Origin: Patescibacteria group bacterium
Lineage (GTDB): Bacteria > Patescibacteriota > Minisyncoccia > UBA6257 > JACRHW01
DNA: 53,376 bases
Direction: 5' to 3'
NCBI GenBank assembly: GCA_028865725.1
Contig: JAGWJP010000001.1
Location: 1-53,376 of the forward strand
Shown here piece after piece: positions 33,418-52,117 of the stretch (the stretch's first letter is position 1; the number at the start of each line of letters is the position of its first letter). Both the position numbers and the translations under genes were made by a program. The notes below the pieces were generated by a model. The model did no database searches. It saw only the letters and a list, made by a program, of their open reading frames with translations, and had not been told where the DNA came from.

Positions 33418-33588
33418 GCCATGCCTCACAAAGAAACGTGAAAAATCTTGCGGGGTTTAGGCAGTACCGTATTCAGTTGTTAGGTTTACGTTAGCATAAT
33501 TTCAGAGAAAATGGAAATAGAAAAAGAGTTGCGCAGATTGTAGAAAATTGGTACATTGCATGCGATATTAAAACATTATTATAAAAAT

Positions 33589-34413: not shown

Positions 34414-34451
34414 TCGTTTGCTATTCCTCTCATATCGTTAATAAGTTTTCG

Positions 34452-34480
34452 AAAAACGGCTGGAAATCAGCTGTTTTTTG
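34452..34480 (+). terminator. Intrinsic terminator
   Basis: ACGGCTG-GAAAT-CAGCTGT followed by TTTTTT. Confidence 0.55.
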
Positions 34481-34585
34481 TTTGCAAAAAGTATCAAGCG
34501 ATTATGTAAAGCGTAGGACTTCGTTTGCTAGAAATAAAGCAGAGTTTAATGGTCGTTATGCATTAACTAATAAATAATAATTAAT

Positions 34586-36262: not shown

Positions 36263-36421
36263 ATTGAAAAGGCGCTTGTAATTGACAATCTGCTGTTTAC
36301 GTTTTCTGGTAAGTATGGAAGATTAAGAAAAACACCATGTTATATCAGATAAAAAGATATTGCGTTCACGCGTTACCTTCCGTAATTTGTGGATTCTGCG
36401 AGAAAGAGCGTCAAAAAAACT

Positions 36422-36559
36422 ATGGAAGACAGTATTCTCATAGAACGAGAAAAAAGAGAGGACGACATGCTCGAAAAAATCGCGCGCGTCATGCTTCTCA
36501 TAGCGGAGTTTCAAAGAAAGAAGGAAGAAGAAATTAACAATAACGATAACAATTTATAA
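36422..36559 (+). CDS. Possible 45-aa ORF abutting the recombinase start (accessory/RDF candidate)
   Basis: Encodes MEDSILIEREKREDDMLEKIARVMLLIAEFQRKKEEEINNNDNNL*. The stop lies 1 nt before the recombinase ATG. Its composition looks more protein-like than the two overlapping track ORFs. Confidence 0.3.
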   Translation: MEDSILIEREKREDDMLEKIARVMLLIAEFQRKKEEEINNNDNNL

Positions 36560-36560
36560 T

Positions 36561-38114
36561 ATGCGCGCATTAATTTATTTGAGAGTTTCAAGTGAAGGGC
36601 AGGCGAGAAAGGAAAATCCTATTTCTACTCAAAAGAACGCTTGTTTGGAATTTGCGCGCAGGAATGGATATGACGTTGATGAGGCACAGGACATATATAT
36701 AGATGCGGGCATTAGCGGACGATCGACAAAAAGTAGAATTGCATATCAAGCGATTATGGAACGGATGAAAACAGACAAAAATGTTGTCGGCATCGTTGCA
36801 TACGATACGAGTCGTATTTCAAGAAATCTAATGGTCTATCTGCAATTTAAGGAACAGTTGAATAAATACGGCAAGAAATTTTTTTCCATTACGGAACCTC
36901 ACTTTAATGACGATAATCCAGTATCAAAACTTATGGAAAATATGTTGGCGAGTTTTGCCGAATTTCGTTCTGGACAGGATGGAGAAAAAATTAGTGCGGC
37001 GATGAAACAAAAAGCGGAGTCAGGTCTTTATGTCGGCCTGGCTCCTTATGGGTACAAGAATGTAAGGGGACAAGACTATGGAGGAAAGGAAAAACGATGG
37101 ATTGAAACAAACCCTATAACCGCACCAATCGTTAAAGAAATCTTTGCAATGTATACGACGGGACGTTATTCGTTGCAACAGGTAGCGGATGAATTAAATA
37201 GGAAAGGATACGCTACCTCGAACAAAAAACCATGGGTTACAAGTTCTGTGGAGAAGATTCTTAAAAACAAGGCGTATATAGGTCATATCATTTGGGGCGG
37301 CGTAACCAACCCTCATGGCCAGCACGAGAAATTTGTAGACGAGGAAACCTTCTATAAAGTACAGGCATTAATGAGAGCTCGCAATTTTGGAGCAAACAAG
37401 ATGAGAAAGCATACCTTTATTCTTCGAGGGTTTTCCTCTTGCGGGGAATGCGGAAGCAGAATCACGGGAGCATATCATACGAAACCAAATGGAATGAAGT
37501 ATTCATATTATCAATGTCAACGAAGACAGCATGCGAAACCTGTTTCATGCAAGCAATCTGTTGTCGCTATCGAAGAATTAGAAAAACAGTTGCTTAAACT
37601 GATTAAGACCATTCAAATACCCCATTCAACCGCATTGCGTTTGGAGGAGAAGATAAAACAGGTGGTTCAAAAAGACAAAGGACCCACCGATGACATGAGA
37701 AAATCGTTGGTCATTCAGTTAGAAAATATTGCAGGAAAAAAGAAATCTTCCCTTGAAAAATATGTGGAGGGGAATATCAGCGATGATGCCTACCGTACCT
37801 TCAAACTGGATTTAGAAGCAAGGGAGCTTCAATTGAAGGCTCAATTAGAAAAAGTAGACGACACCATTTCAGGCATTGTAGCGCAAATAGAAACCGCAAT
37901 TGGACTCGCGAGAAACTGCTATAAAACGTATAAAACTGCCTCCTATGAACAAAAAATTCTGCTTGCGCAGACATTCTTTGAGAAGGTTATCATTAAGGAT
38001 CGTACCATCCAAAATGCCTTTCTAAATCACCCATTTGCCTATATTTGCCAAGAGAAGGCGAAGGCGAAAAGGGAGTTCCAATATCAGTATACTGGTGGAA
38101 ACGGCGGGAGTTGA
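36561..38114 (+). CDS. Large serine recombinase (integrase)
   Basis: MRALIYLRVSSEGQ catalytic-Ser resolvase domain, a recombinase domain, the zinc ribbon CGECGSRITG...YYQCQRRQH...C, and a coiled-coil region. The last 22 nt overlap the tmRNA 3' end on the opposite strand. Confidence 0.9.
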   Translation: MRALIYLRVSSEGQARKENPISTQKNACLEFARRNGYDVDEAQDIYIDAGISGRSTKSRIAYQAIMERMKTDKNVVGIVAYDTSRISRNLMVYLQFKEQLNKYGKKFFSITEPHFNDDNPVSKLMENMLASFAEFRSGQDGEKISAAMKQKAESGLYVGLAPYGYKNVRGQDYGGKEKRWIETNPITAPIVKEIFAMYTTGRYSLQQVADELNRKGYATSNKKPWVTSSVEKILKNKAYIGHIIWGGVTNPHGQHEKFVDEETFYKVQALMRARNFGANKMRKHTFILRGFSSCGECGSRITGAYHTKPNGMKYSYYQCQRRQHAKPVSCKQSVVAIEELEKQLLKLIKTIQIPHSTALRLEEKIKQVVQKDKGPTDDMRKSLVIQLENIAGKKKSSLEKYVEGNISDDAYRTFKLDLEARELQLKAQLEKVDDTISGIVAQIETAIGLARNCYKTYKTASYEQKILLAQTFFEKVIIKDRTIQNAFLNHPFAYICQEKAKAKREFQYQYTGGNGGS

Positions 38115-38451
38115 ACCCGCATCCAAGTAGGTTGACTCATTACTTCTACAGAATCCTAGTTAATTTAGTAGTACACGTTATGCTTGAAAATTAACAAAAC
38201 ACAAAACGCACGCGCTTCGTTAGTGTCGTGGTGTGCGGTGAAGCTCAAGTCCTCACACCATCTATCTCGATGTATGAAGCCCCTGTCTCGTATCGAGCGT
38301 AAGAGAAGGGACTACCCGACATTAAGCAAATGCCAATGCGGGTTGCCTATTAGATAAGTTGGCAGTTATGACTTTGCCTGTTGTTCGAAGGTGCAAGCAA
38401 ACCCTATTCAGCGTAATGATTCGCGAATACTTGTCGAAGCCCAGCGTTCCC
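38093..38451 (-). ncRNA. ssrA: tmRNA (SsrA), one-piece
   Basis: 5' GGGAACGCUGGGCUUCGAC and 3' GGAUGCGGGUUCAACUCCCGCCGUUUCCACCA. The acceptor stem has G3:U70. The tag reading frame GCC AAC ... GCU UAA (38363-38322) encodes ANLSNRQPALAFA*. smpB is adjacent. Confidence 0.9.
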
Positions 38452-38592
38452 ATTGGAAACCTTCTGTTTGGCGAGCTTCTTTATCGCTAAACTCTGATAC
38501 TCCTTCACCGTATTTTGAATACGGCTCAGTCCGTTTCTCGTTTGCTTCGTATATTTCGTGCAAACAAGAATCTTTCAAATTTGTATAGTAAT

Positions 38593-39027
38593 TTATAATT
38601 TTCGAAGATCGCGACGAACCTGTTCTTTTTCTATTTTTTCGCGCTTGTCATACTTCTTTTTGCCCCGCGCGAGCGCGAATTCAAGCTTGATGCGCGGTCC
38701 TTTAGTATAAACACGGAGCGGTACTAATGTCAATCCTTTCTCCTGTGTTTTGCCAAAAAGATGGAGCAGTTCTTTTTTATTGATCAAGAGTTTCCGCGTC
38801 TGCGTTGGGTCGTAGTCTTTCGGTGTGTTCGCGGGCTGGAAGGCGCCGATGTGCGCGTTTATGAGATACAGCTCTCCACCAAGGATTTTGACGTAGCTTC
38901 CTTTGAGGCTCATCATATGCTCGTGGATTGCTTTTACTTCAAACCCCTGCAATACCAAACCCGCCTCATATTTTTCAATGAGTTCATAATCGTAGAAAGC
39001 TTTTGGGTTTTCTGCTAGACTTGGCAT
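38593..39027 (-). CDS. smpB: SsrA-binding protein SmpB
   Basis: ENPKAFYDYELIEKYEAGLVLQGFEVKAI...RKLLINKKEL...PLRVY. The start is taken at MPSLAEN. Confidence 0.9.
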   Translation of the reverse strand: MPSLAENPKAFYDYELIEKYEAGLVLQGFEVKAIHEHMMSLKGSYVKILGGELYLINAHIGAFQPANTPKDYDPTQTRKLLINKKELLHLFGKTQEKGLTLVPLRVYTKGPRIKLEFALARGKKKYDKREKIEKEQVRRDLRKL

Positions 39028-39075
39028 ATAGGCAGTGTATACTCTATACCACACCTTTTATTGTATTGTAATCCA

Positions 39076-40821
39076 ATGAAAACCCCAAAAGAAATAATCC
39101 ATACGCTTCTGGTCCAGGCTTTTGAATTTAAAAATCGTGAGGAAAATCAAACCTGGAGACCAGAAAATATGAATATTAAAATTATGCCTACGGATAGGCG
39201 TTTTGGGGATTATTCAGCTTCGTTTTTGAAAGGTATCGCGCACGGTACGGAAACCGAAGAAGAGATCTTTCGTGGATTTATTGAGGATGGATGGAATAAG
39301 ATGGATTCTGATGAGAAAAAGTACGTAGAGCCTCTTTCTGCGGAATCATTTAAATCAGGCTTCATCAACTTCAGAATGAGCGATCGTTTCTATGAGGATG
39401 CGTTCAAGGAATCAGATACGTGGAGCAAGGGGAATGAAGGAGCGGGAAAAACGGTTATCCTTGATTATTTTCAATTGAATATCGCGAAAGAGCCTCACGT
39501 GGGTCACTTACGTTCTGCGGTGATTGGAGACGCGTTAAAGCGTGTTCTTTTGGCGCGAGGGTATCGCACGATTGCTGACACGCACGTAGGGGATTGGGGC
39601 ACACAGTTTGGTATTTTGCTCTATGCCTACAAAAAAGCGATTGCAGGAAAGAGCAAAAAGATCGACGAAATAAAAGACAATCCTTTTGTTGCTTTGCAGG
39701 AACTTTATGTATTGGCCAACGAAGAGGAGGACGTGCACGAAAAAGGAAAAGCGGAGTTTGCGAAATTGGAACAAGGGGATTCAGAGAACCGCGCTATTTG
39801 GGAGTGGATGGTGGATATTTCTATGAAGAAGCTGGGGGACAATGCCGCGCGCTTGGACCTCTTGCCGTTTGAAGAGCATCGAGGGGAGAGTGTCTATGAG
39901 AGTGCCATGCCTCCGATTGTAGAAGAGGCACTTAGAACGGGAATTGCAAAAAAAACGGACGACGGAGCTGTGGTGGTGGATTTAAGCGAAGAAGGCTTAG
40001 ATGAAGCGGTGCTCGTAAAGTCTGATGGTGCGACTACTTACCTTCTGCGTGATCTCGCGACGATCAAATATCGTGTGAGTGCATATCATTTTTGGAAAAA
40101 CTTGTATGTGGTAGACAATCGTCAATCACATCATTTTCGCCAAGTATTCCGAGTTGCGGAGCTTTTAGGGTTTGAGGGCGTGGGTGCAAGCGAACACATC
40201 GAATTTGGATTTATGAAGTTGCCAGAAGGCGCTATGAGCACACGCAAGGGGACCGTGGTGTTGCTCGAGGCGGTGCTCGATGAAGCGGAGCGACGCGCAC
40301 GTGCGGTAATTCAAGAAAAAAATCCCGGGCTCCATAATAAGGAAGCGGTTGCAAGGTCGGTTGGCCTCGGCGCAATTAAGTTCTTTGATCTTTCGCATAA
40401 CCGCAAGTCAGATATTGTATTCCGTTTTGAGGACGCACTTTCTTTTGAAGGGAGAACCGGCCCTTATATTCAATACACTCACGCGCGCCTGAAGAGTATC
40501 TTGCGTAAGAGTACCGACGAAATTCTCGACCACTTTAGCGTGCATGCTGCACTTGATACTAAAGAGCGTGAGTTGTTGCTCCACTCGGTACAGCTCGCTG
40601 AAGTATTACAACGCGTAATTGAAGGCTGGTTTCCTCACTTGCTTGCCGACTATCTTTTTGAACTCGCACAAGCTGCAAACGAGTTTTATCATTCGCACCC
40701 CATTCTCACAGAGAAGGATACAGAAAAACGAACCACACTTTTGATGATTGTGCGTGTGGTGGCAAAAACACTTGCAACAGGGCTCGATCTCTTAGGCATT
40801 GAAGCCCCCGATGAGATGTAA
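39076..40821 (+). CDS. argS: Arginyl-tRNA synthetase
   Basis: NIAKEPHVGHLRSAVIGDAL (HIGH region), the YVVDNRQSHHF motif, and a C-terminal anticodon-binding domain ending ...GIEAPDEM. ATG 39076 is preferred over TTG 39061. Confidence 0.9.
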   Translation: MKTPKEIIHTLLVQAFEFKNREENQTWRPENMNIKIMPTDRRFGDYSASFLKGIAHGTETEEEIFRGFIEDGWNKMDSDEKKYVEPLSAESFKSGFINFRMSDRFYEDAFKESDTWSKGNEGAGKTVILDYFQLNIAKEPHVGHLRSAVIGDALKRVLLARGYRTIADTHVGDWGTQFGILLYAYKKAIAGKSKKIDEIKDNPFVALQELYVLANEEEDVHEKGKAEFAKLEQGDSENRAIWEWMVDISMKKLGDNAARLDLLPFEEHRGESVYESAMPPIVEEALRTGIAKKTDDGAVVVDLSEEGLDEAVLVKSDGATTYLLRDLATIKYRVSAYHFWKNLYVVDNRQSHHFRQVFRVAELLGFEGVGASEHIEFGFMKLPEGAMSTRKGTVVLLEAVLDEAERRARAVIQEKNPGLHNKEAVARSVGLGAIKFFDLSHNRKSDIVFRFEDALSFEGRTGPYIQYTHARLKSILRKSTDEILDHFSVHAALDTKERELLLHSVQLAEVLQRVIEGWFPHLLADYLFELAQAANEFYHSHPILTEKDTEKRTTLLMIVRVVAKTLATGLDLLGIEAPDEM

Positions 40822-41077
40822 GTCGAGCTTGTTAGTTTATTAGTGTGTTAAGAATTAGGACGAACTAGTATTCGAACTTGTCCTGAGCTTGCCGAAGGGT
40901 TTCTTTTTGAGGATATATCGATGTAGAGCTTTCAATAAACTTAGGCAATATTTGTGTTTTTGACTCAAGGTTGTGAGGAGATACTTACGCGAATATTGAC
41001 TTCCTAATTGATATGTGATAGTATTTTTTCAGCATCCAAAGGCTACTCTTTGGAGCTTGAAAAGGAGGAGAGTAGTA

Positions 41078-41632
41078 ATGATGAAGTTTATCAAGTTTTT
41101 CGCGCAGCACTGGATTGTTACTGCGGTGTGTGTTTCTCTTGGTATTATTACGATTACTTTTCACAATCCGTTTGCAAAACAGAACGGACAACAGGAAACG
41201 TTTGTTTCTAAATTTAGTGTTCCTGATCGCGCTCCTGATTTTGTGGCCCATTGGATTACACAAGATACGGATGATTCTTTTTGTAATGACGACGTCACTG
41301 TTGTTCTGTGGCATATTTCTTTGCATAACGTGAGTGCAGATGATGCGGTGGCTGATATTCGTACGCATTCCCCTTGGGTGGTGAAGGAAATCTATATGAA
41401 TCAGGATGATTCATGTCACTCGCATGGAAATGTTCTCTTGATGCCGTATCGTGACTGTAATGGAAAAGACGCGGAAGTATTGTTGATCAAGGTAGTTAGT
41501 TATAGTTCTTCCAAAAATTGGCCTCAAGCATGGAATCAGTTTTCAAGACTTGCAAAGGGTAAAAAGGTCATCTTCACGCTTGATTCTGTTGATGATAATA
41601 TTTATCGAATACTGCCGCTTCAATTGCCGTAA
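41078..41632 (+). CDS. Hypothetical N-terminally anchored protein
   Basis: A GGAGG lies upstream of ATGATG at 41078, and an N-terminal hydrophobic segment (WIVTAVCVSLGIITITF) is present. Confidence 0.55.
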   Translation: MMKFIKFFAQHWIVTAVCVSLGIITITFHNPFAKQNGQQETFVSKFSVPDRAPDFVAHWITQDTDDSFCNDDVTVVLWHISLHNVSADDAVADIRTHSPWVVKEIYMNQDDSCHSHGNVLLMPYRDCNGKDAEVLLIKVVSYSSSKNWPQAWNQFSRLAKGKKVIFTLDSVDDNIYRILPLQLP

Positions 41633-41654
41633 GAAATCAATCTTTCATGAATAT

Positions 41655-41676
41655 ACCGAGGAAGCTCGGTTTTTTG
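41655..41676 (+). terminator. Intrinsic terminator
   Basis: ACCGAG-GAAG-CTCGGT followed by TTTTT. Confidence 0.6.
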
Positions 41677-41877
41677 TTTTGCCGCTCGGGGTTGGAGTTT
41701 TCGGGTTTTGGCGTGGAGCAGAAAATGAACTCCCTTTTGGCATATACTTTTGGTTTCTTCGCGTGTTTTTTGATGAGAGCCCAAGAAATCCATCGCGCAA
41801 AGTTGTTTAGCCTCTATGAAATGCTTGTTGAAAGTACGTTAGAACTACTACTTCGACCCCATCTCGTACCAGGTAAA

Positions 41878-41913
41878 TTATCCCCTATCTGACGATCGTC
41901 AGATAGGGGATAA
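41878..41913. repeat. Perfect 36-bp palindrome
   Basis: TTATCCCCTATCTGACGA|TCGTCAGATAGGGGATAA with no spacer; the centre reads CGATCG. Confidence 0.8.
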
Positions 41914-42001
41914 TGATAAATACAATACAATAACGATACGATACAAAACACGCATCAAGTTCTTTTTATTATTCACTTGAATGACCTATGGGTCTGGATT
42001 C

Positions 42002-42025
42002 ATCCCTGATCTTTCGATCAGGGAT
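42002..42025. repeat. 10-bp-stem hairpin/palindrome
   Basis: ATCCCTGATC-TTTC-GATCAGGGAT. The arm sequence resembles the 41878 palindrome (ATCCC..ATC). Confidence 0.75.
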
Positions 42026-42263
42026 TTCTCTCTGAGTTTAATAAAAAGTAGCAAATAGAAAAAATTTGTCCTTGTTATTCCGAATGGCATTGTGAATTTT
42101 TGATTCCCTTATTTATTTTAGAATGCTCCATCACTCATGTGTGATGTGATTGATTGATTTTATGGGCGTTTTTGGCTACTATGTAGTAGCTGTTGGTGTT
42201 TAGAGTTTGTTACAATTATGCCATCAGTGAGAAGCTAATTCTCTAAAAGCTAGCAGTTATTAT

Positions 42264-45200
42264 ATGGATCCGCTGAATTTAGCACAACTTGAGGAGCGTA
42301 TTCTCGCATTTTGGAAGGAACGCGGCATTTTCGAAAAAACGCTTAAGAAGACTGCGCGAAAAAAACCTTTTGTGTTTTTTGAGGGACCTCCTACTGCAAA
42401 TGGACGTCCTGGTATTCATCATTTTTTAGGGCGTGCGTTTAAGGATATCATTTGTCGTTATCAGACGATGCGTGGCAGGTATGTGACGCGCAAGGCGGGG
42501 TGGGATACCCATGGGCTTCCTGTTGAATTAGGGGTAGAAAAAGCGCTTGGTATTCATAACAAAAAAGAAATTGAAGAGTATGGCGTGGCTGCTTTTAATG
42601 CGAAGGCACGGGAATCGGTGTGGCAGTATAAGGATGAGTGGGAAAAGTTTACTGAACGCATGGGGTTTTGGCTCGACATGAGCAACCCATATGTTACGTA
42701 CGATAATCGCTACATTGAGAATGTGTGGGGGGTGCTGAAACGTATTCACAAAAATTATGCATTAGAAAAAGATTTTCGCGTGTCGCCCTACTGCGTGCGA
42801 TGCGGTACGGTACTCTCTTCGCATGAGCTTGGCCAGCCAGGGGCCTATCGTCTGACGCGTGATCCATCGCTTTATTTTAAGCTTGAACTGAAAGGCGGGT
42901 CAAAACAGAAAAAGGAATTTCTACTTGTGTGGACCACCACACCATGGACGCTTCCCGCAAATGTTGCGGTGGCAGTGCATCCTGCGCTTACTTATACGCG
43001 CTATGATATTCAAGGAGAATTTTTGTGGGCAGCAAAGCTTCCCGAAAAGCTTGCCGCAAAGGTGCAGGCGCAAGAGGGATATGCGGTAACATCAGTAAAG
43101 GGAAAGGCGTTGGTAGGAAAAAAATATGTTCCTCTGTATCCCCACAAACTAAAAGATGCCTATCGCGTGGTTTCTGCTGATTTTGTTTCTGCAGAGGAGG
43201 GTACAGGACTTGTTCACATCGCTCCCGCCTTTGGCGAAGACGATATGATAGTGGCGCGAAAAGAAAAATTACCTGTGTTGATTACGCTCGACAACCAGGG
43301 CCATATGAAACCCGGTGAACCTGGGGAGGGGCTGTTTGCAAAAGATGCCGATCGAGTAGTCTTTGAACATTTGCGCGATCGAGGTCTTGTGATCGACGAT
43401 ATTCTTGGCGCGATTGAACACGAATATCCGTTCTGTTGGCGCTGTGATACGCCACTCCTTTATATGGCCCGCGAATCGTGGTTTATTCGCATGAGTAAAC
43501 TTCGCAAGGAGATGATGCGTAATAACGAAACGATTAATTGGATACCTTCTCATGTACGCGAAGGGCGTTTTGGAGAATGGCTCAAAGAGCTTAAAGATTG
43601 GGCAATTTCGCGCGAACGGTATTGGGGTACTCCGTTGCCCATGTGGCAGTGTGAAAAGAAAGGGCACCGTGTATGTATCGGGTCGCTTGAAGAGTTAAAT
43701 GATCGTGCGTATTACCGCAATACGTGGTATGTGATGCGTCACGGTCAGGCGACACATAACGTAGAGGGCACGCTTGCGTCGGGTGCTTTTCTTGATTCTT
43801 CTACGCTCACCGAACAAGGTAAGGCCTCAGTGCGTGCTGCCGCGAAACGGCTCAAGAAAGTAAAGATCGATCTTATTATTGCTTCTCCTGCAGAACGTGT
43901 AAAAGAGACGGTTGCCCTTCTTCATGAATATTTGAAGGTTCCTGTACATTACGATGAACGCCTTGTGGAAATTAGAACTGGGGTGTTTGACGGAAAGTCC
44001 GTCGCAGAGCACAAGGCATTCTTTTCAGGACCCATTGAGGAGTTTTCAAAACCATCTCCTGGAGGCGAAAGTTTACACGATGTCGCAAAAAGAATGATGA
44101 GTGCCGTACTCGAGTTTAATAGGAAATATACAGGGAAACGCATTTTGCTTATAGGCCACGGTGATCCTTTGTGGATGCTTGAGAATACATTACTGCAGCA
44201 TACTCCCGAAGAGACGCTCGCATCTGATTATCCCGAGTGCGGCGATTATAAAAAGATAGAAGTGTTTAACTATCCTTACAATAAGGATGGTCAGATTGAT
44301 ATACACAAGCCATATATTGATGAGATTGCGATAAAGTGTCCTACGTGTAAGGCGATATGTAATCGCACTCCAGAAGTGATGGATGTATGGTTTGATTCGG
44401 GGGCGATGCCATTTGCGCAGACTGGGCGACTTGTAGACTGTGATCCCAAGAAAGGACTTTTACAGTGTATTGAACAGTACCCCGCTGATTACATTGTGGA
44501 AGGGGTGGACCAAACGCGCGGATGGTTTTACACGCTTCTTGCGGTTTCGACACTTCTGAAGATGCCGCCAAGCTATAAAAACGTATCTGTGTTGGGACTT
44601 GTGCTTGATGAGCACGGAAAAAAGATGTCAAAGTCGCGCGGCAATATCACGAATCCATGGGATATTATGAACACGGTGGGCAGTGACGCGGCCCGGTGGT
44701 ATTTTTATACATTGAATCAGCCCTATGAGTCTAAAAAATTTTCTCATGCAGATCTTGAGAAATCGAAACGAAAGTTTTTTATGACGTTTTGGAATGTGTT
44801 TCAATTTTATCGTACGTATGTAGGGGGTGTGCAGAGGAGTGTGCGTTCGACTTCTCAACATACCCCATCTGTTCTTGATCGTTGGATACGTGCAAAGACC
44901 GCTCTTCTTGTGAAAGACGTGGGGGCTGCATTAGATCATTTTGATGTGATGAATGCGGCGCGCATGATAGAACAATTTGTGGTGGAAGATTATTCTCGTT
45001 GGTGGTTGCGCCGTTCGCGCAGGAGATTTCAGCGTCCGGAGTCAGACGAAGAGTTTTGCGGTGCGGCGAATGTATTCTATGAGGTGATGAAGACACTCGT
45101 TCTGTGTGTGGCGCCTCTTGCCCCCTTTTTTGCAGAAGAGCTTTATCAGGAAATGAAGCATTACGATTCTTCGCTTCTGGAGAGTGTCCACCTTGAGAAT

Positions 45201-45764
45201 TATCCGCAGATGAAACAGCGCGGCATAATGAAAGAGCATGAAGAACTGTTTGAGCAGATGGAACTTGTGCGCAACGTATGTGCTGTCGCCCTACGCCTTC
45301 GCGCAGAGAAGGATATTAAGGTGCGCCAGCCGCTCATGGCACTTGAGATTAAGACAGAAATCTTTCTCGATAAGGAACTCCTTGAACTTGTGCGCGATGA
45401 GGTGAATGTAAAGTCTGCGCGGCGCGTGAAAGTGCTTTCTCACGATGCGATTGCTAACGAATCTGATTTGGCAGTAGCGCTTGATACTACCATTACTCAC
45501 GAGCTTCGTGAAGAAGGCCTCGTGCGTGATTTTATTCGATCGTTACAGGAGCTGCGCGCGGATGCCGGGTTTCAAATGGGGCAGATGGTTGATTGTTTTG
45601 TAGCGGCATCTGACAGATTATTACCTGTGTTTCAGCGTTTTGAGGAGCAGATTAAAAAAGACGCGTCGCTTGCGCATTTTGAATACGCACGCAGCGCTAC
45701 GTTTGATTGCGAAAAGACATTTGACATGGAAGGTGAGGTTACGGTACAACTTAAAAAATGTTAG
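42264..45764 (+). CDS. ileS: Isoleucyl-tRNA synthetase with inserted histidine-phosphatase (PGAM-like) domain
   Basis: PPTANGRPGIHHFLGR (HIGH), KKMSKSRGN (KMSKS), and the editing domain TTTPWTLPAN. Residues from about 489 to 670 (YVMRHGQATHN...SPAERVKET...GGESL...LIGHGD) form an extra domain. Confidence 0.9.
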   Translation: MDPLNLAQLEERILAFWKERGIFEKTLKKTARKKPFVFFEGPPTANGRPGIHHFLGRAFKDIICRYQTMRGRYVTRKAGWDTHGLPVELGVEKALGIHNKKEIEEYGVAAFNAKARESVWQYKDEWEKFTERMGFWLDMSNPYVTYDNRYIENVWGVLKRIHKNYALEKDFRVSPYCVRCGTVLSSHELGQPGAYRLTRDPSLYFKLELKGGSKQKKEFLLVWTTTPWTLPANVAVAVHPALTYTRYDIQGEFLWAAKLPEKLAAKVQAQEGYAVTSVKGKALVGKKYVPLYPHKLKDAYRVVSADFVSAEEGTGLVHIAPAFGEDDMIVARKEKLPVLITLDNQGHMKPGEPGEGLFAKDADRVVFEHLRDRGLVIDDILGAIEHEYPFCWRCDTPLLYMARESWFIRMSKLRKEMMRNNETINWIPSHVREGRFGEWLKELKDWAISRERYWGTPLPMWQCEKKGHRVCIGSLEELNDRAYYRNTWYVMRHGQATHNVEGTLASGAFLDSSTLTEQGKASVRAAAKRLKKVKIDLIIASPAERVKETVALLHEYLKVPVHYDERLVEIRTGVFDGKSVAEHKAFFSGPIEEFSKPSPGGESLHDVAKRMMSAVLEFNRKYTGKRILLIGHGDPLWMLENTLLQHTPEETLASDYPECGDYKKIEVFNYPYNKDGQIDIHKPYIDEIAIKCPTCKAICNRTPEVMDVWFDSGAMPFAQTGRLVDCDPKKGLLQCIEQYPADYIVEGVDQTRGWFYTLLAVSTLLKMPPSYKNVSVLGLVLDEHGKKMSKSRGNITNPWDIMNTVGSDAARWYFYTLNQPYESKKFSHADLEKSKRKFFMTFWNVFQFYRTYVGGVQRSVRSTSQHTPSVLDRWIRAKTALLVKDVGAALDHFDVMNAARMIEQFVVEDYSRWWLRRSRRRFQRPESDEEFCGAANVFYEVMKTLVLCVAPLAPFFAEELYQEMKHYDSSLLESVHLENYPQMKQRGIMKEHEELFEQMELVRNVCAVALRLRAEKDIKVRQPLMALEIKTEIFLDKELLELVRDEVNVKSARRVKVLSHDAIANESDLAVALDTTITHELREEGLVRDFIRSLQELRADAGFQMGQMVDCFVAASDRLLPVFQRFEEQIKKDASLAHFEYARSATFDCEKTFDMEGEVTVQLKKC

Positions 45765-46018
45765 AGAAAGAGAAAAAACATAAAATGGAGCAGCCCCCTT
45801 TTTCTTCGGGCAGGCGTGATATTCTGCTCGATCCTCTTTCCTTATCTGATCTTGAAAATTATAGGGAAATCCTCAAAAAGTCCATTGCGGCCATAGAGCA
45901 TATTCTTGAGGGCATGGAATCCGATACACAGGGTGCTGAGTATTATCGGCGTCTTCGAGAAGATGAGAAGCATGAAATAGCGAATGTACAGCGCGAGATT
46001 TTAAAAAGAAAGATCTAG
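45758..46018 (+). CDS. Hypothetical small protein
   Basis: 86-aa ORF overlapping the ileS stop by 7 nt, with a helical charged sequence. Confidence 0.45.
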   Translation: MLEKEKKHKMEQPPFSSGRRDILLDPLSLSDLENYREILKKSIAAIEHILEGMESDTQGAEYYRRLREDEKHEIANVQREILKRKI

Positions 46019-46469: not shown

Positions 46470-47480
46470 CTAATCAAAATAATTGATTTTTACTGCCTTG
46501 CGGACCTTGCGCATGGTTTCTTGTGCGATAACACGGGTTTTTTTTGTTCCTGATTTCAAAATGTCCATCACGGTGTCGGGATCGCGTTCCAATTCTCGGC
46601 GTCGTGTGCGAATAGGTGCGATGATATGTTCCAAAACATCAATAAGTCGTTTTTTGATTTCCACATCACCGAGCCCCCCGCGCGTGTAGTGCTCTTTCAG
46701 GAGCCGCACCTCATTTTTTTTAGGGTCAAAAATGTCGAGGTAGGTGAACACCACGTTATTCCCTACATTTCCCGAATCGCTTGCATGGATATGTTCTGGA
46801 TCAGTATACATCATCATTACCTTTTTTTGTATTTCTTCAAAGGAATCGTTAAGAAATATTGTATTGTTGAGTGATTTGCTTGCCTTTGCATTGCCATCAA
46901 TTCCCACGAGACGTGGAGTAGTGGAGAGTACGGGTGTAATTTTTTGAAATGTTTCTCCGTAGAGGGCATTGAATTTGAGCACGATTTCGTTCGCTTGTTC
47001 AATGACAGGGAGCTGGTCTTCTCCGACCGGAACAAGATTAGCGCCGCAAAACAAAATATCCGCGGCTTGGCTTACAGGATAGGCAAGAAATCCTGCGGGC
47101 ACGTCTTCTCCGAATCCTTTTTGTTTCATCTCGTCTTTTACCGTTGGATTTCTCTTCAGGCGAGCAAGGGTGACTAGATTCAAAAGGAGAACTGTAAGTT
47201 CGGCAATTTCAGGAACTTGTGATTGAATGAAGAAGGTTGTTTTTTGAGGCGACACGCCCGCCGCAAGATTATCAAGTGTTACTTCAAAGACATTATTGCG
47301 CACTTTTTCCGGATTATCGGCATTATCAGTCAGTGCCTGAATATCGGCGACCATGTAAAAACACCGATCATATTGATCTTGAAGCGCAATTCTGTTTTGT
47401 ATCGAACCTACTAAATGGCCGAGGTGAAGCGTTCCCGTCGGCCGATCGCCTGTGAGCACAGCACTATTCTTATTTTTCAT
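46470..47480 (-). CDS. trpS: Tryptophanyl-tRNA synthetase
   Basis: TGDRPTGTLHLGHLVG (HIGH-type) and KASKSLNN (KMSKS-type). 336 aa. Confidence 0.9.
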   Translation of the reverse strand: MKNKNSAVLTGDRPTGTLHLGHLVGSIQNRIALQDQYDRCFYMVADIQALTDNADNPEKVRNNVFEVTLDNLAAGVSPQKTTFFIQSQVPEIAELTVLLLNLVTLARLKRNPTVKDEMKQKGFGEDVPAGFLAYPVSQAADILFCGANLVPVGEDQLPVIEQANEIVLKFNALYGETFQKITPVLSTTPRLVGIDGNAKASKSLNNTIFLNDSFEEIQKKVMMMYTDPEHIHASDSGNVGNNVVFTYLDIFDPKKNEVRLLKEHYTRGGLGDVEIKKRLIDVLEHIIAPIRTRRRELERDPDTVMDILKSGTKKTRVIAQETMRKVRKAVKINYFD

Positions 47481-47687: not shown

Positions 47688-49454
47688 TTACACTTCAACG
47701 ATGGCGGGGAGTACCATGGGGCGCCGTTTCAGTTTTTTCCAAAGGAATGATCCCACCTGTTCTCGAATATTATCTTTTACATGAGCCCAATTACTCATGT
47801 ATCCAGGAGTGGCGGTGCGTTCCACAATTCTTTTGATGAGTCCGCGCATCTCATCAAGAAGTTCTTTCGATTCGCGAAGGTGGATTGAGCCACGTGAGAT
47901 AATATTGGGCACTCCTTTTAATTTTCCTGTTTTCGCGTCGATGGCAGCGATAATGACGAACATCCCGTCTTTTGATAACAGTTCTCGGTCGCGGAGAACT
48001 ACTTCATTGACATCGCCAATACCAAGACCATCTACCATAATGTAATTTGCTGGCACCTCTCCTATAATTTTGCCCTCTTCTGGAGTAAATTCTACAATAT
48101 CGCCATTTGATGCAATGACGATATTTTCTTTCTGTACGCCTACTAATTGAGCGATTTCTTCATGTGCTCTCAACATAGAAAATTGTCCGTGAATAGGCAT
48201 CAGGAATTTCGGCTTTACAATATTTAAGAGCAATTTGAGATCTTCTCGGTAGGCATGTCCACTGACATGGATATCCATCATGCGATAATTAAATATTTTA
48301 GCGCCTTGTCGGGCAAGGGAGTCGGTTAGATATTGTACCGAACGTTCATTTCCTGGTACCACGGACGATGAGAAGATAATCGTATCACCTTGCTCTACTT
48401 TAAAGTAGCGATGTTCTCCATTCGTGATGCGCATGAGCGCAGCGCGGTCTTCTCCTTGGGCTCCCGTACACATAATGACGAGTTTTTCTGGCGGTAACAT
48501 CAGTGCTTCCTCTGGAAGAATAATAGTTCCTTTTTTTATCTTAAGGTATCCTAGCGATCGGCAGATTTCTACATTATTTTTCATGCTGTATCCTTCAATC
48601 ACAAGTTTACGATCAAATCGTTCTGCAAGGTAGATAATTTGTTGCACGCGCTCAATAAGAGAAGAGAAGGTTGCAGCAATAATGCGCCCTTCTGCGTGTT
48701 CGAAGATTGTTCCCAGATTGTCAAAGATTTCTTTTTCTGAGGGAGCTTGGCCAGGTTTTTCCGAACCGGTAGAATCCGAAAGGAGTAAAAATACGCCTTG
48801 CGAAGTAAGTGTGACAATACGACCGAGGTCTGCAGGTTCGTCTGCAATTGGGGAGAAATCGAATTTGAAGTCGCAGGTGTGCACGACTAAGCCAAGTGGC
48901 GTTTGAATGGCGAGGCCGATTGAATCGGGGATATTGTGATTTACGTGAAATGGAGTGACCTTGAAGTGACCAAGTACAATGGTTTCCTCCTTATCTTTGT
49001 GTACCGTTTCAATATTCAATTTCGGTTGATGAGGAAAATCATCTTGGCGTTTTAAAATGATGCCGCGGGTGAGCGGAGTGGCATAAATTGTCGGATTTCC
49101 TATTTCATGGATGACATAAGGAATTGCACCGATGTGATCGTAGTGACCGTGTGTAATAAATACTCCAACGATCTTGTGCTTATTCTCTTTGAGGTACTGA
49201 AAATTAGGAATTGTATAATCAATTCCCGGCATGTCTTCGTCCGGAAATCCGAACCCCATATCGACAACAAGGATCTGATCGTCGTATTCAAGTGCGAGCA
49301 TATTGCGCCCCACCTCCTCGAGTCCTCCAAAAGGAATAACTTTCAGACCTTGTTTTTCCTGTTTTTGCGTAGATGCCGCGTGCGATGAGCGGCGATGAGC
49401 CCATGCGTTACGCGACGCCGGTTTTGCGGGCTGTTTTTTTATGTTTTTTATCAT
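47688..49454 (-). CDS. rnj: Ribonuclease J
   Basis: Metallo-beta-lactamase motif VFITHGHYDHIGAIPY, a beta-CASP region, and a C-terminal domain. 588 aa. Confidence 0.9.
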   Translation of the reverse strand: MIKNIKKQPAKPASRNAWAHRRSSHAASTQKQEKQGLKVIPFGGLEEVGRNMLALEYDDQILVVDMGFGFPDEDMPGIDYTIPNFQYLKENKHKIVGVFITHGHYDHIGAIPYVIHEIGNPTIYATPLTRGIILKRQDDFPHQPKLNIETVHKDKEETIVLGHFKVTPFHVNHNIPDSIGLAIQTPLGLVVHTCDFKFDFSPIADEPADLGRIVTLTSQGVFLLLSDSTGSEKPGQAPSEKEIFDNLGTIFEHAEGRIIAATFSSLIERVQQIIYLAERFDRKLVIEGYSMKNNVEICRSLGYLKIKKGTIILPEEALMLPPEKLVIMCTGAQGEDRAALMRITNGEHRYFKVEQGDTIIFSSSVVPGNERSVQYLTDSLARQGAKIFNYRMMDIHVSGHAYREDLKLLLNIVKPKFLMPIHGQFSMLRAHEEIAQLVGVQKENIVIASNGDIVEFTPEEGKIIGEVPANYIMVDGLGIGDVNEVVLRDRELLSKDGMFVIIAAIDAKTGKLKGVPNIISRGSIHLRESKELLDEMRGLIKRIVERTATPGYMSNWAHVKDNIREQVGSFLWKKLKRRPMVLPAIVEV

Positions 49455-51766: not shown

Positions 51767-52117
51767 TTACTCGGCCCCTCCTCCATGGATGTGTAACAAA
51801 AGATTCAATGCGCCAAAGAGGATAGTGGCTAACACGAGGGCGTTTAAGGTCTGTATATGTATTCCGAGAGGAGCGAATGTGATTAACCACAAGATTAACA
51901 TATTGACGACAAAAGTAAAGAGTCCCAGGGTAAGCAGGATAAGGGGAAGAAATACGAGCTTGAGAATCGGACGCAAGGTGAAATTGAGTACTGTCAAAAT
52001 GGCCGTGGTTTCGAGAAGAAGGATCACATCACCCTGGAACATAAATCCGGGGATTATTGCCCGTGCAATAAGAATTCCCAGTAGATTTACAAAAAAATTG
52101 CGAATAAGTTTGTTCAT
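51767..52117 (-). CDS. DUF360/holin-4-like small membrane protein
   Basis: 116 aa with four hydrophobic segments (…LNFTLRPILKLVFLPLILLTLGLFTFVVN…). Confidence 0.6.
   Translation of the reverse strand: MNKLIRNFFVNLLGILIARAIIPGFMFQGDVILLLETTAILTVLNFTLRPILKLVFLPLILLTLGLFTFVVNMLILWLITFAPLGIHIQTLNALVLATILFGALNLLLHIHGGGAE

What the first reader, a model, noticed from the sequence alone, without database searches (positions are those of the whole stretch)
43725..44270. Histidine-phosphatase (phosphoglycerate-mutase-like) domain inserted inside isoleucyl-tRNA synthetase
The IleRS sequence is interrupted between ...CIGSLEELNDRAYYRNTW and ...DIHKPYIDEIAIKCPTCK..., a connection that I recall is short in other IleRS. 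An insertion of about 180 aa carries the full HP-superfamily signature: VMRHGQATHN (RHG), IASPAERVKETV (SPxxRxxxT), PGGESLHDV and LLIGHGD (second His). The protein is 1166 aa. The catalytic residues look intact, so a functional phosphatase or mutase module embedded in an aaRS seems likely. I am not aware of such an insertion being described.
Basis: partly seen in the sequence, partly recalled or inferred. Interest (0 to 1): 0.68.

Follow-up and report, generated by a model that had tools for sequence, protein, structure and literature searches.

The report
Phosphatase domain nested inside isoleucyl-tRNA synthetase
The isoleucyl-tRNA synthetase of this Parcubacteria (CPR) genome carries a complete, apparently active histidine-phosphatase domain inside its catalytic core; hundreds of related species have the same phosphatase either embedded in this enzyme or encoded as a separate gene just upstream of it, an enzyme partnership I could not find described in the literature.

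Summary
ORF 42264-45764 (+) is a 1166-aa type-2 IleRS. About 190 aa (residues 484-673, nt 43713-44282) replace a 3-residue turn in the CP3 Zn-knuckle. The insert is a branch-1 histidine phosphatase: Pfam E=1e-32, AF2 pLDDT 96, TM 0.81 to PhoE.

It is neither a chimera nor a one-off. At least 380 GTDB species representatives encode the module, and 78 of the 80 loci checked show it in frame inside IleRS. The catalytic residues R492, H493, R545, E569 and H632 are invariant.

New findings:
- In other Parcubacteria the same module is a standalone ~190-aa gene in an argS-hp-ileS operon, with ileS just downstream in 32 of 35 assessable loci.
- In Gracilibacteria-type IleRS it sits at three different sites in 1-3 copies. 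It occurs there alongside embedded GNAT, P-loop kinase or hydrolase domains, and in one protein (P0458) a HAD phosphatase takes its place.
- Rare relatives are fused to ArgRS, Sua5/TsaC and ATP sulfurylase.

The window also encodes its own iPGM, so the insert is not the glycolytic mutase. Best reading: an active phosphohydrolase that partners aminoacylation. The substrate is unresolved; the leading candidates are PPi or a 3'-phosphate on tRNA or a nucleotide. Five literature searches found no description.

The parts
42264..45764 (+). ileS: 1166-aa type-2 isoleucyl-tRNA synthetase with a nested phosphatase domain
   Evidence: ORF. TIGR00392 scores 844.7 bits against a cutoff of 621.4. Pfam finds tRNA-synt_1, Anticodon_1 and DUF5915. 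Best PDB matches are 8c8w and 1ile. AF2 full-length model: mean pLDDT 92.2, pTM 0.86.
42411..42422 (+). G50-I51-H52-H53, the variant of the class-I HIGH signature
   Evidence: Sequence TANGRPGIHHF is conserved in the family. It aligns to GVHH of P. megaterium IleRS2. The link between GXHH and mupirocin hyper-resistance rests on my own knowledge.
42858..43403 (+). CP1 editing domain (about aa 199-380), with the TTTPWTLPAN and GTGLVHIAPAFGEDD motifs intact
   Evidence: Matches isolated IleRS editing-domain structures 1wk8, 1wny and 1ue0 at aa 195-379. The motifs are conserved in the family.
43641..43712 (+). N-terminal half of the CP3 Zn-knuckle (aa 460-483). It holds C463; the family's second Cys at position 466 is Lys in this protein.
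   Evidence: Column counts: C463 in 117/120 and C466 in 99/120. CP3 naming follows PMC7191050.
43713..44282 (+). Inserted histidine-phosphatase (HP, branch 1) domain, aa 484-673
   Evidence: Pfam PF00300 at aa 489-651, E=1e-32. Boundaries come from the PDB alignment. Insert length is 193-209 aa in all 120 relatives. AF2 insert-only model has pLDDT 95.9. Foldseek matches PhoE 1h2e/1ebb at TM 0.81-0.82 and rmsd 2.2-2.3 A.
43737..43742 (+). R492-H493 of the RHG motif; H493 is the predicted phospho-acceptor nucleophile
   Evidence: Present in 120/120 relatives and in all 156 complete copies across contexts. Aligns to the RHG of PhoE and PspA.
43896..43898 (+). R545, the second phosphate-binding Arg (SPxxR motif)
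   Evidence: 120/120; 164/164.
43968..43970 (+). E569, the predicted general acid
   Evidence: 116 E plus 4 D out of 120; E or D in 164/165 copies.
44157..44159 (+). H632, the second catalytic His, within the clade signature HGDPLW
   Evidence: 120/120. The pattern [SG]H[GA][DY]PLW retrieved 380 confirmed relatives among GTDB species genomes.
44283..44366 (+). C-terminal half of CP3 (aa 674-701), with DIHKPYID and C692-x2-C695
   Evidence: D679, H681, P683, D686, C692 and C695 are invariant or nearly so.
44622..44636 (+). KMSKS loop (K787-S791)
   Evidence: Sequence and family conservation.
39061..40821 (+). argS (ArgRS), the upstream syntenic neighbour. In relatives the standalone HP gene lies between argS and ileS.
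   Evidence: Pfam tRNA-synt_1d plus DALR_1. The argS-hp-ileS operon is seen in L081, L087 and L090 and in 24 of 30 metagenomic loci assessable on both sides.
38593..39054 (-). SmpB-like ORF, part of the shared synteny tmRNA-SmpB-ArgRS-(HP)-IleRS
   Evidence: I read the translation as SmpB-like by eye; no family model was run on this ORF. SmpB occupies the same position in L081, L085 and L090.

Best explanation
The segment is a catalytically competent branch-1 histidine phosphatase of the compact PhoE/PspA type. It is nested in the CP3 Zn-knuckle of an otherwise complete, functional-looking type-2 IleRS.

It descends from a standalone ~190-aa phosphatase gene. In related Parcubacteria that gene sits in a tight argS-hp-ileS operon. 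In this lineage it has been moved into ileS, so the two activities are made as one polypeptide.

Shown here: the fold, the intact and invariant catalytic residues, lineage-wide conservation, the operon form, recurrent insertion at three IleRS sites in 1-4 copies, and a non-homologous HAD phosphatase occupying one of those sites.

Inferred: the domain works as a phosphohydrolase that serves the aminoacylation reaction. It would remove a phosphate-bearing product or block, using H493 as a phospho-enzyme nucleophile and E569 as the acid.

My leading substrate candidate is inorganic pyrophosphate, the one product shared by every enzyme this module is found fused to (IleRS, ArgRS, Sua5/TsaC, ATP sulfurylase); I put this at about 0.3. 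Close behind, at about 0.25, is a 2'/3'-(pyro)phosphate on the tRNA acceptor end or on an adenosine nucleotide such as pAp. The 0.6 confidence below applies to 'an active phosphatase functionally coupled to aminoacylation', not to a specific substrate.
For: Identity and fold.

Constraint: R492, H493, R545 and H632 are 120/120 and E569 is E or D in 120/120; insert length is fixed at 193-209 aa; the insert evolves at about the rate of the anticodon domain (43% vs 42% identity). The catalytic set is intact in every complete copy in every context and in 123 of 126 Gracilibacteria-type copies.

Breadth: 380 confirmed GTDB species genomes from one peptide pattern; 78 of 80 loci checked are in frame.

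Operon form: P0138, P0136 and P0170 lie between argS and an insert-less ileS with 1-10 nt spacing or overlap. In metagenomes ileS is immediately downstream in 31/35 loci, or 32/35 counting L142, and argS is upstream in 33/38.

Recurrent linkage: sites A, B and C are mapped; copy numbers and sites are counted; tandem and quadruple copies appear.

Non-homologous replacement: a HAD phosphatase sits at site B in P0458.

Other PPi-releasing hosts: ArgRS, Sua5 and ATP sulfurylase.

Host integrity: the HIGH-like, KMSKS and editing motifs are conserved.

Not a glycolytic PGM: an iPGM is encoded at 52114-53328.
Against: No activity has been measured. No HP-superfamily enzyme is known to me as an inorganic pyrophosphatase.

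The strictly conserved general acid and the Asp next to H632 (HGD) fit a phosphomonoester better than PPi.

Tethering gives little kinetic benefit for a freely diffusing small molecule.

The ArgRS, Sua5 and ATP-sulfurylase fusions are rare: 1-3 sequence clusters each, and the Sua5 case rests on one 3.7-kb contig.

The kinases co-embedded in Gracilibacteria-type IleRS resemble RNA- or tRNA-directed kinases (Pnkp1 at E=1.6e-5, PSTK at E=4e-10). They do not resemble adenylate kinase. This points toward an RNA substrate instead.

I could not test whether these genomes lack a canonical pyrophosphatase; one search was uninformative.
Confidence: 0.6

Rival explanations
1. A tRNA or nucleotide 3'-end phosphatase. 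The module removes a 2'/3'-phosphate or pyrophosphate from A76 of tRNA docked on the synthetase, or from pAp-like adenosine 3'-phosphates, and so restores a chargeable 3'-OH. In some Gracilibacteria-type IleRSs it would work with a co-embedded polynucleotide-kinase-like domain as a Pnkp-style end-healing unit.
For: Embedded P-loop kinases sit next to or alongside the HP (P0459, P0475). Their best matches are Pnkp1 of the bacterial RNA-repair system (4xrp, E=1.6e-5) and L-seryl-tRNA(Sec) kinase (E=4e-10). A HAD phosphatase can take the HP's place, as in T4 and mammalian PNKP (own knowledge). Tethering to an aaRS gives a real proximity advantage only for a macromolecular substrate. The ATP-sulfurylase fusion lies next to a sulfotransferase, whose by-product pAp is an adenosine 3'-phosphate. 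The second-best NCBIfam hit for the insert is the bifunctional RNase H/acid phosphatase family.
Against: The search found no HP-family RNA 3'-phosphatase. The kinase similarities are weak. The module is not consistently basic: pI ranges 5-10, and the window copy is 6.7. Three unrelated insertion sites plus a free-standing form argue against a precise hand-off geometry. Near-universal conservation in two CPR classes looks more like housekeeping than repair. Sua5 does not bind tRNA ends.
Confidence: 0.25
2. A target-tethered detoxification or resistance module. The HP, together with the GNAT, kinase and serine-hydrolase domains embedded in related IleRSs, inactivates a natural inhibitor aimed at IleRS, for example a phosphorylated Ile-AMP mimic.
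For: The set of domains embedded in Gracilibacteria-type IleRS (GNAT, P-loop kinase, Ser hydrolase, phosphatases) matches the classic classes of antibiotic-modifying enzymes. This reading explains why IleRS in particular is decorated. GNAT (MccE/RimL) and hydrolase (MccF) enzymes detoxify aminoacyl-adenylate mimics (own knowledge). A Parcubacteria HIT phosphoramidase confers microcin C resistance (PMC7157772). NCBIfam files ileS_w_GNAT among 'exception' models alongside MupA and MupB.
Against: HP enzymes transfer a terminal phosphoryl group and are not expected to cleave the diester-like phosphorus of adenylate mimics. No phosphorylated IleRS inhibitor is known to me. Resistance genes are usually patchy, whereas this module is lineage-wide and sits in a core translation operon. 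The ArgRS, Sua5 and ATP-sulfurylase fusions are not explained.
Confidence: 0.1
3. An unrelated metabolic phosphatase, such as a phosphoserine, sugar-phosphate or alpha-ribazole phosphatase, or a phosphoglycerate mutase. It would ride on ileS only for co-expression in a streamlined genome, with no functional link to aminoacylation.
For: The best sequence and fold matches are metabolic phosphatases: PspA at 2.4e-29, PhoE, CobC and GpgP. Operon neighbours fuse easily, and CPR genomes are reduced. Jaffe et al. [quoted passage not shown]
Against: The window has its own iPGM. All equivalog models for dPGM, CobC and PspA score far below their cutoffs, and the dPGM tail is absent. Independent insertions at three sites in two divergent IleRS lineages, tandem amplification, an 89-91% adjacency to ileS when free-standing, and replacement by a HAD phosphatase are all hard to explain without a functional link.
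Confidence: 0.1
4. A structural or tRNA-binding insertion that has lost catalysis, or an assembly or gene-calling artefact.
For: CP3 is a structurally variable subdomain that tolerates different topologies (PMC7191050). CPR proteins often carry lineage-specific insertions.
Against: The catalytic residues are invariant in more than 400 copies. The same in-frame architecture appears in 78 of 80 independent assemblies. Model confidence is high.
Confidence: 0.03

Closest known systems
PhoE (Geobacillus stearothermophilus YhfR, 1ebb/1h2e) and PspA (Hydrogenobacter thermophilus metal-independent phosphoserine phosphatase, 4ij5): compact branch-1 histidine phosphatases
   Same: Same fold (TM 0.80-0.82, rmsd 2.2-2.4 A), same size (~200 aa), the same RHG/R/E/H catalytic set aligned column for column, and no dPGM C-terminal tail.
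   Different: Only 21-28% identity. Those enzymes are free-standing and metabolic. This module is nested in an aaRS or encoded in an aaRS operon, carries its own HGDPLW signature, and has an unknown substrate.
IleRS type 2 (Priestia megaterium IleRS2, 8c8w; Thermus thermophilus IleRS, 1ile)
   Same: The host protein aligns end to end outside the insert. It shares the HIGH-variant (GxHH), KMSKS, the CP1 editing domain, the Zn-type CP3 and the C-terminal DUF5915.
   Different: In those enzymes CP3 closes with a short turn where this protein has ~190 extra residues.
NCBIfam NF040702 'isoleucine--tRNA ligase, N-acetyltransferase domain-containing' (ileS_w_GNAT)
   Same: Another IleRS with an enzyme domain embedded in its body. 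Many Gracilibacteria and Peregrinibacteria members carry GNAT and HP together.
   Different: The window protein has no GNAT and scores 290 bits against a cutoff of 1999. It belongs to a different IleRS lineage (35-39% core identity).
Bifunctional RNase H/acid phosphatase (Mycobacterium Rv2228c/RnhC type; NCBIfam NF005567)
   Same: A CobC/PhoE-like HP domain covalently joined to a nucleic-acid enzyme. It is the second-best NCBIfam hit for the insert (E=7e-21).
   Different: That is an end-to-end fusion, not a nested one. The score is below cutoff (75 vs 326) and the partner enzyme is different.
Dedicated pyrophosphatases encoded with or fused to PPi-producing enzymes (B. subtilis PpaX in the hprK operon; eukaryotic ATP sulfurylase-pyrophosphatase fusions), from my own knowledge
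   Same: The logic proposed here: a phosphohydrolase genetically linked to an enzyme that releases PPi. The HAD insert of P0458 hits the PpaX model at 1.4e-9.
   Different: Those enzymes are HAD or family-I PPases. PPase activity of this HP module is purely hypothetical.
Polynucleotide kinase-phosphatase (T4 Pnkp; bacterial Pnkp1-Rnl-Hen1)
   Same: The kinase-plus-phosphatase pairing seen in some related IleRSs. The embedded kinase's best PDB hit is Pnkp1.
   Different: The window protein has no kinase. Pnkp phosphatases are HAD or metallophosphoesterase enzymes, not HP.

Membership tests
Histidine phosphatase superfamily, branch 1 (Pfam PF00300) | Profile match above the curated gathering score | tested here: met
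   113.7 bits in the whole protein and 118.4 bits for the insert alone, against a cutoff of 21.7.
Histidine phosphatase superfamily, branch 1 (Pfam PF00300) | RHG motif with the nucleophilic His, a second Arg, a second His and an acidic proton donor | tested here: met
   R492, H493, R545, E569 and H632 are present, invariant in the family, and aligned to the same motifs in PhoE and PspA.
Histidine phosphatase superfamily, branch 1 (Pfam PF00300) | alpha/beta/alpha fold of the dPGM/PhoE type | tested here: met
   AF2 model with pLDDT 95.9 and pTM 0.90. Foldseek top hits are all HP enzymes; PhoE matches at TM 0.81-0.82.
Histidine phosphatase superfamily, branch 1 (Pfam PF00300) | Phosphoryl transfer through a phospho-histidine intermediate | not testable with these tools
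   Requires an enzyme assay or trapping of the phospho-enzyme.
Cofactor-dependent phosphoglycerate mutase (dPGM) | Scores above the equivalog cutoffs (TIGR01258, NF038349 and others) | tested here: not met
   dPGM_arch scores 74.9 against 225, pgm_1 scores 25.7 against 81.7, and GpmB scores 54 against 261.
Cofactor-dependent phosphoglycerate mutase (dPGM) | The C-terminal tail and extended lid that retain the bisphosphoglycerate intermediate | tested here: not met
   The Pfam match covers profile positions 2-166 of 194. dPGM structures align with low target-normalised TM (0.60-0.66) and extra length.
alpha-Ribazole phosphatase CobC (TIGR03162) | Score above the equivalog cutoff | tested here: not met
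   77.6 bits against a cutoff of 162.9.
Isoleucyl-tRNA synthetase (TIGR00392) | Equivalog score above cutoff; class-I signature motifs; CP1 editing motifs; anticodon-binding domain | tested here: met
   844.7 bits against 621.4. GIHH, KMSKS, TTTPWTLPAN and GTGLVHIAPAFGEDD are present and conserved. Anticodon_1 and DUF5915 are found.
Mupirocin-resistance IleRS MupA/MupB (NF000257, NF000258) | Score above the exception-model cutoff | tested here: not met
   704 and 717 bits against a cutoff of 1900. It is a related type-2 IleRS but not a member.
ileS_w_GNAT (NF040702) | IleRS containing a GNAT domain; score above cutoff | tested here: not met
   290 bits against 1999. Pfam finds no GNAT in the window protein.
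Inorganic pyrophosphatase (functional class; proposed activity only) | Homology to family I, family II or HAD-type PPases, or demonstrated PPi hydrolysis | not tested
   No homology is expected, since the fold is HP. Activity was not assayed. The proposal rests only on the shared chemistry of the fusion partners.

The most novel reading that the evidence does not exclude
In Patescibacteria a dedicated histidine phosphatase is an integral, previously unrecognised component of the aminoacylation machinery. It would be either the cell's housekeeping pyrophosphatase, physically wired to PPi-producing adenylate-forming enzymes in ultra-small cells, or a proofreading or healing phosphatase for the tRNA 3' end built into the synthetase. 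More broadly, IleRS in these bacteria would serve as a scaffold that repeatedly captures accessory enzymes (phosphatase, kinase, acetyltransferase, hydrolase) at three permissive sites.
Probability: 0.3. Interest if true: 0.85.

Novelty: new variant of a known kind. Interest (0 to 1): 0.72.

Why it matters
Aminoacyl-tRNA synthetases are among the most conserved and best-studied enzymes. Bacterial aaRSs with an extra, catalytically intact enzyme nested inside the catalytic core are very unusual.

Here the linkage between IleRS and one phosphatase clade shows up in four independent ways:
- a conserved operon
- nesting at three different sites
- tandem amplification
- replacement by a non-homologous phosphatase

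These signals span two large CPR classes and hundreds of species. Together they point to an unrecognised requirement of aminoacylation in ultra-small, metabolically reduced bacteria.

Identifying the substrate could reveal how these cells handle PPi, or damaged or blocked tRNA ends. It would also explain a widespread "class I tRNA ligase family protein" annotation, and it would warn against metabolic reconstructions that count this domain as a gpmB/PGM.

The three permissive insertion sites (CP3, the post-WFDSG loop, and the SC-fold/anticodon-domain junction) are also of practical interest for engineering IleRS fusions.

Tried and rejected
Assembly chimera or frameshift. Rejected: the architecture is in frame in 78 of 80 independent assemblies.

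Recent horizontal insertion. There is no compositional anomaly, and the insert diverges in step with its host.

Glycolytic dPGM substitute, prompted by Jaffe 2020. Rejected for this genome because an iPGM is encoded in the window, and because the dPGM criteria fail.

Remnant of a standalone hp gene between argS and ileS in the window. None was found: a six-frame HMM scan detects only the embedded copy. The 205-aa ORF at that position has no Pfam or PHROG match.

Tree of HP modules, to count insertion events. It is too poorly resolved (distances around 1) to interpret beyond standalone copies grouping together and the ArgRS-fused copy nesting among them.

IleRS tree. It supports a common Parcubacteria clade (100/100) with mostly basal insert-less forms, but one insert-less sequence nests among the embedded ones. 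A single insertion versus multiple insertions at site A therefore remains unresolved.

Electrostatics as a test for RNA binding. Not discriminating.

Canonical PPase search in the fetched DNA, using E. coli Ppa recalled from memory. No hits, but the sample is not random, so the result is uninformative.

Literature on pyrophosphatase in Patescibacteria or Parcubacteria and on HP enzymes in RNA repair. Nothing relevant.

Orientation of the HP active site relative to the tRNA or the synthetic site. This could not be determined because model coordinates are not exposed by the tools.
Full report
**1. The observation**

The window contains a 3501-nt ORF (42264-45764, + strand) encoding 1166 aa. It is an isoleucyl-tRNA synthetase: TIGR00392 scores 844.7 bits against a cutoff of 621.4. 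Pfam finds tRNA-synt_1, Anticodon_1 and DUF5915.

The tRNA-synt_1 match is split by a His_Phos_1 (PF00300) match at aa 489-651 (E=1.1e-32).

Alignment to solved IleRS structures defines the insertion exactly. Against P. megaterium IleRS2 (8c8w), query 8-482 pairs with chain 12-478, and query 674 onward pairs with chain 482 onward. About 190 residues therefore replace a three-residue turn. I place the insert at aa 484-673 (nt 43713-44282). GC content is unremarkable across the insert.

**2. Where it sits**

The flanks form a Cys4 knuckle: C463-x2-C466 ... [insert] ... C692-x2-C695. The second pair is invariant in 120 relatives. The first pair is present in 117 and 99 of 120, and the window protein has Lys at position 466.

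This is the CP3 subdomain. Chung et al. 2020 (PMC7191050) describe CP3 as structurally variable between IleRSs and as Zn-binding only in the T. thermophilus type.

The host enzyme looks fully functional. The HIGH-variant (GIHH), KMSKS and the CP1 editing motifs (TTTPWTLPAN, GTGLVHIAPAFGEDD) are conserved. An AlphaFold2 model of the whole protein is confident (mean pLDDT 92.2, pTM 0.86), with the insert at a pLDDT of about 91-97.

**3. What the insert is**

Folded alone, the insert gives pLDDT 95.9 and pTM 0.90. Foldseek against the PDB returns only histidine-phosphatase-superfamily enzymes. The best matches are:
- PhoE (1h2e/1ebb, TM 0.81-0.82, rmsd 2.2-2.3 A)
- mycobacterial glucosyl-3-phosphoglycerate phosphatase
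- Hydrogenobacter PspA phosphoserine phosphatase

A family profile ranks PspA (2.4e-29), PhoE (2e-28) and CobC (3e-20) first, with the catalytic motifs aligned column for column.

All NCBIfam equivalog models (CobC, dPGM, GpmB, PspA) score far below their cutoffs. The dPGM C-terminal tail is absent, since the Pfam match covers profile positions 2-166 of 194. The module is therefore a compact phosphatase-type HP of unassigned specificity, not a mutase.

The window also encodes a cofactor-independent PGM at 52114-53328 (-). This removes the idea that the insert supplies glycolytic PGM. That idea had been prompted by Jaffe et al. 2020, who report PGM missing from some Parcubacteria clades.

**4. 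It is lineage-wide and under catalytic constraint**

All 120 best homologues of the full protein (45-68% identity, 1049-1219 aa) have PF00300 together with PF00133. Where named, they come from Parcubacteria, Harrisonbacteria, Minisyncoccota, Paceibacterota or Patescibacteria, annotated only as 'class I tRNA ligase family protein' or IleRS.

Across them R492, H493, R545 and H632 are 120/120, and E569 is E (116) or D (4). The insert is always 193-209 aa. It evolves at about the rate of the anticodon-binding domain (43% vs 42% mean identity to the query).

A scan of GTDB species-representative genomes with a single peptide pattern from the module found 380 confirmed relatives. Of the 80 loci retrieved, 78 have the pre-insert, HP and post-insert segments in one frame. 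The other two are cut by contig ends. Named lineages include Colwell-, Lipton-, Harrison-, Jorgensen-, Brenner-, Yanofsky-, Ryan-, Sung-, Azam- and Wolfebacteria, plus Spechtbacterales and Paceibacter.

**5. The module also exists free-standing, in an operon with ileS**

An exhaustive profile search of 1.84 billion representative proteins gave 488 hits at E<=1e-30. Of the best 150:
- 72 are full IleRSs with the domain embedded
- 27 are truncated IleRSs
- about 50 contain only the HP domain, mostly ~190 aa and matching profile positions 2-184, which means they lack the IleRS junction

Three such genes from different 50%-identity clusters were examined in context. Each lies between argS and an insert-less ileS (931-955 aa), separated from ileS by 1-8 nt or overlapping it by 10 nt. 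The surrounding synteny is SmpB/IF3/L35/L20 ... ArgRS-HP-IleRS-RecO.

In 80 further metagenomic loci, 47 HP genes are standalone. The ileS N-terminus is immediately downstream in 31 of 35 assessable cases. A 32nd locus (L142) has one intervening ORF. argS is upstream in 33 of 38, and the full argS-hp-ileS arrangement holds in 24 of 30.

The window shows the same synteny: tmRNA, a SmpB-like ORF, ArgRS, then ileS. It has no standalone hp and no remnant of one.

The standalone proteins are annotated 'histidine phosphatase family protein' or 'broad specificity phosphatase PhoE', from Patescibacteria including Staskawiczbacteria.

With the HP masked, the embedded and standalone-associated Parcubacteria IleRSs form one clade (100/100 bootstraps in a simple NJ analysis). 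The insert-less forms are mostly basal, which suggests the operon is ancestral and the embedding derived. One insert-less sequence nests among embedded ones, so the number of insertion events is unresolved.

**6. Recurrent, geometry-independent linkage**

A second, divergent IleRS lineage has 35-39% core identity to the window protein. It comes from Gracilibacteria, Peregrinibacteria and Peribacteria, and it carries the same module at three distinct sites:

| Site | Position | Copies |
|---|---|---|
| A | CP3 | 46 |
| B | after the WFESG motif | 16 |
| C | between the stem-contact helix and the anticodon-binding domain | 59 |

Of 120 proteins, 90 have one copy, 15 have two and 2 have three. 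Tandem doublets at one site (P0163) and a fragment with four copies (P0121) also occur. The R-H-R-(E/D)-H set is intact in every complete copy among the 150 representatives, apart from a Q at the acid position in the ATP-sulfurylase fusion, and in 123 of 126 Gracilibacteria-type copies.

The same sites also accept other enzymes: GNAT (the architecture NCBIfam calls ileS_w_GNAT), P-loop kinases, a serine hydrolase and DUF559 endonuclease-like domains. In P0458 a tandem HAD-superfamily phosphatase sits at site B in place of the HP. A non-homologous phosphatase in the same position argues that phosphatase activity itself is what selection retains.

**7. Other hosts of the module**

Members of the same HP clade (E<=1e-50 to the insert profile) are fused to:
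- the C-terminus of ArgRS, in a genome where ileS has left the locus
- Sua5/TsaC, the threonylcarbamoyl-AMP synthase
- ATP sulfurylase, in a glycan-sulfation cluster next to a sulfotransferase

These fusions are rare, at 1-3 sequence clusters each. All four host enzymes attack the alpha-phosphate of ATP and release PPi.

**8. Mechanism: what is shown and what is inferred**

Shown:
- a complete HP fold with an invariant catalytic apparatus
- an intact host synthetase
- four independent kinds of genetic linkage between this HP clade and IleRS: operon, nesting at three sites, amplification, and analogous replacement

Inferred: the domain is an active phosphohydrolase whose job is tied to aminoacylation. 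Because three unrelated insertion points and a trans-acting form all occur, a precise active-site-to-active-site hand-off seems unlikely. Co-presence or stoichiometry with the synthetase appears to be what matters, perhaps especially in ultra-small cells with few protein copies.

The substrate is not determined.
- PPi is the only product common to all host enzymes. The HAD replacement hits PpaX- and phosphoglycolate-phosphatase-type models, all below cutoff. I rank PPi first at about 0.3. Against it: HP enzymes are not known pyrophosphatases, the conserved general acid and the HGD motif suit monoesters, and tethering does not help with a diffusible ligand.
- A 2'/3'-(pyro)phosphate on the tRNA acceptor end or on adenosine nucleotides such as pAp is a close second at about 0.25. 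It is supported by the co-embedded kinases, whose weak best matches are Pnkp1 (E=1.6e-5) and PSTK (E=4e-10), by the HAD/HP interchange reminiscent of PNKP enzymes, and by the sulfotransferase neighbour of the ATP-sulfurylase fusion.
- Detoxification of an IleRS-directed inhibitor, and an unrelated metabolic role, remain possible at about 0.1 each.
- Charge analysis and a crude PPase search did not discriminate between these.

**9. Comparison with what is known, and novelty**

The parts are known families. The window protein passes membership tests for IleRS and for HP branch 1. It fails those for dPGM, CobC, MupA/MupB and ileS_w_GNAT.

The closest precedents for the architecture are IleRS-with-GNAT (an NCBIfam model without literature that I could find), the mycobacterial RNase H/HP fusion, and PFK-2/FBPase-2 as a classic HP fusion.

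Five full-text searches found no description of an HP domain in or next to an aaRS. Annotation pipelines have noticed it in passing, as in the JGI product name.

I rate it a new variant of a known kind: an aaRS with an accessory catalytic domain. The evidence of functional coupling is unusually strong, the phylogenetic footprint is large, and the biochemical question is open and directly testable.

**10. Verdict**

Interest is 0.72.

Noticed in passing
window 36561-38114 (+) and 38093-38451 (-): A large serine recombinase gene (Resolvase + Recombinase + Zn_ribbon_recom, 517 aa) ends 21 nt inside the 3' end of the tmRNA gene. This is the classic arrangement of an element integrated into ssrA. 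The two ORFs upstream (33556-34413 and 34586-36262) have no Pfam or PHROG match. No duplicated tmRNA 3' end was found in 20000-38500, so the far boundary is undefined.
   Followed up: partly
window 33334-33463 (-): A full-length match to the Rfam LOOT RNA motif (RF03000, 75.2 bits against a gathering score of 46.4), a structured RNA of unknown function.
   Followed up: no
window 52114-53328 (-): A cofactor-independent phosphoglycerate mutase (iPGM_N + Metalloenzyme). The ORF as listed starts at profile position 33, so the true start may lie upstream or use another start codon. It is relevant because it shows the organism does not need the IleRS insert as a PGM.
   Followed up: partly
window 42411-42422 (+): The IleRS carries GIHH in place of the canonical HxGH class-I signature, as does P. 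megaterium IleRS2 (GVHH). From my own knowledge, this GXHH variant has been linked to mupirocin hyper-resistance in type-2 IleRS.
   Followed up: no
window 41015-41632 (+) and 41633-42263: A 205-aa ORF with no Pfam or PHROG match occupies the position where relatives have the standalone hp gene; its sequence looks to have a hydrophobic N-terminal segment, judged by eye only. It is followed by a ~630-nt AT-rich gap (GC 0.34-0.36) before ileS. No Rfam family (for example a T-box) was detected there at gathering thresholds.
   Followed up: partly
window 45758-46018 (+): An 86-aa ORF overlaps the ileS stop codon by 7 nt. It has no Pfam or PHROG match and may be a small co-translated gene or may be spurious.
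   Followed up: no
window 39061-40821, 42264-45764, 46470-47480: Three class-I aaRS genes (ArgRS, IleRS, TrpRS) cluster within 8.5 kb, next to RNase J (47688-49454, -) and tRNA-Leu(CAG).
   Followed up: no
window 31071-31415: An intergenic array of degenerate ~50-nt direct repeats (3 local copies) interleaved with two copies of a 47-nt unit (TTTTTAGTTTCTT...AAGAAACTAA) whose ends are inverted repeats of each other. Function unknown.
   Followed up: no
window 29966-30775 (-) and 32698-33204 (-): A DNA methyltransferase (phrog_67, E=1e-68) and an HslV-family peptidase-like ORF lie in the region upstream of the recombinase.
   Followed up: no
L173 (P0224), and proteins P0398, P0410, P0448, P0458, P0459, P0475: Gracilibacteria- and Peregrinibacteria-type IleRSs act as scaffolds for many embedded domains at the same three sites: GNAT, AAA_33/Zeta-like kinases, a Ser hydrolase, tandem HAD phosphatases and DUF559 endonuclease-like modules. 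They reach 1860 aa. The DUF559 and Y1-transposase hits suggest that some of these insertions are selfish.
   Followed up: partly
L066, L073, L037 (record titles): Three GTDB representative genomes that carry the Parcubacteria-type IleRS::HP are labelled 'Gammaproteobacteria' or 'Acutalibacteraceae'. Many others carry a generic 'uncultured Candidatus Saccharibacteria' label. These are probably mis-binned or mislabelled MAG records.
   Followed up: no
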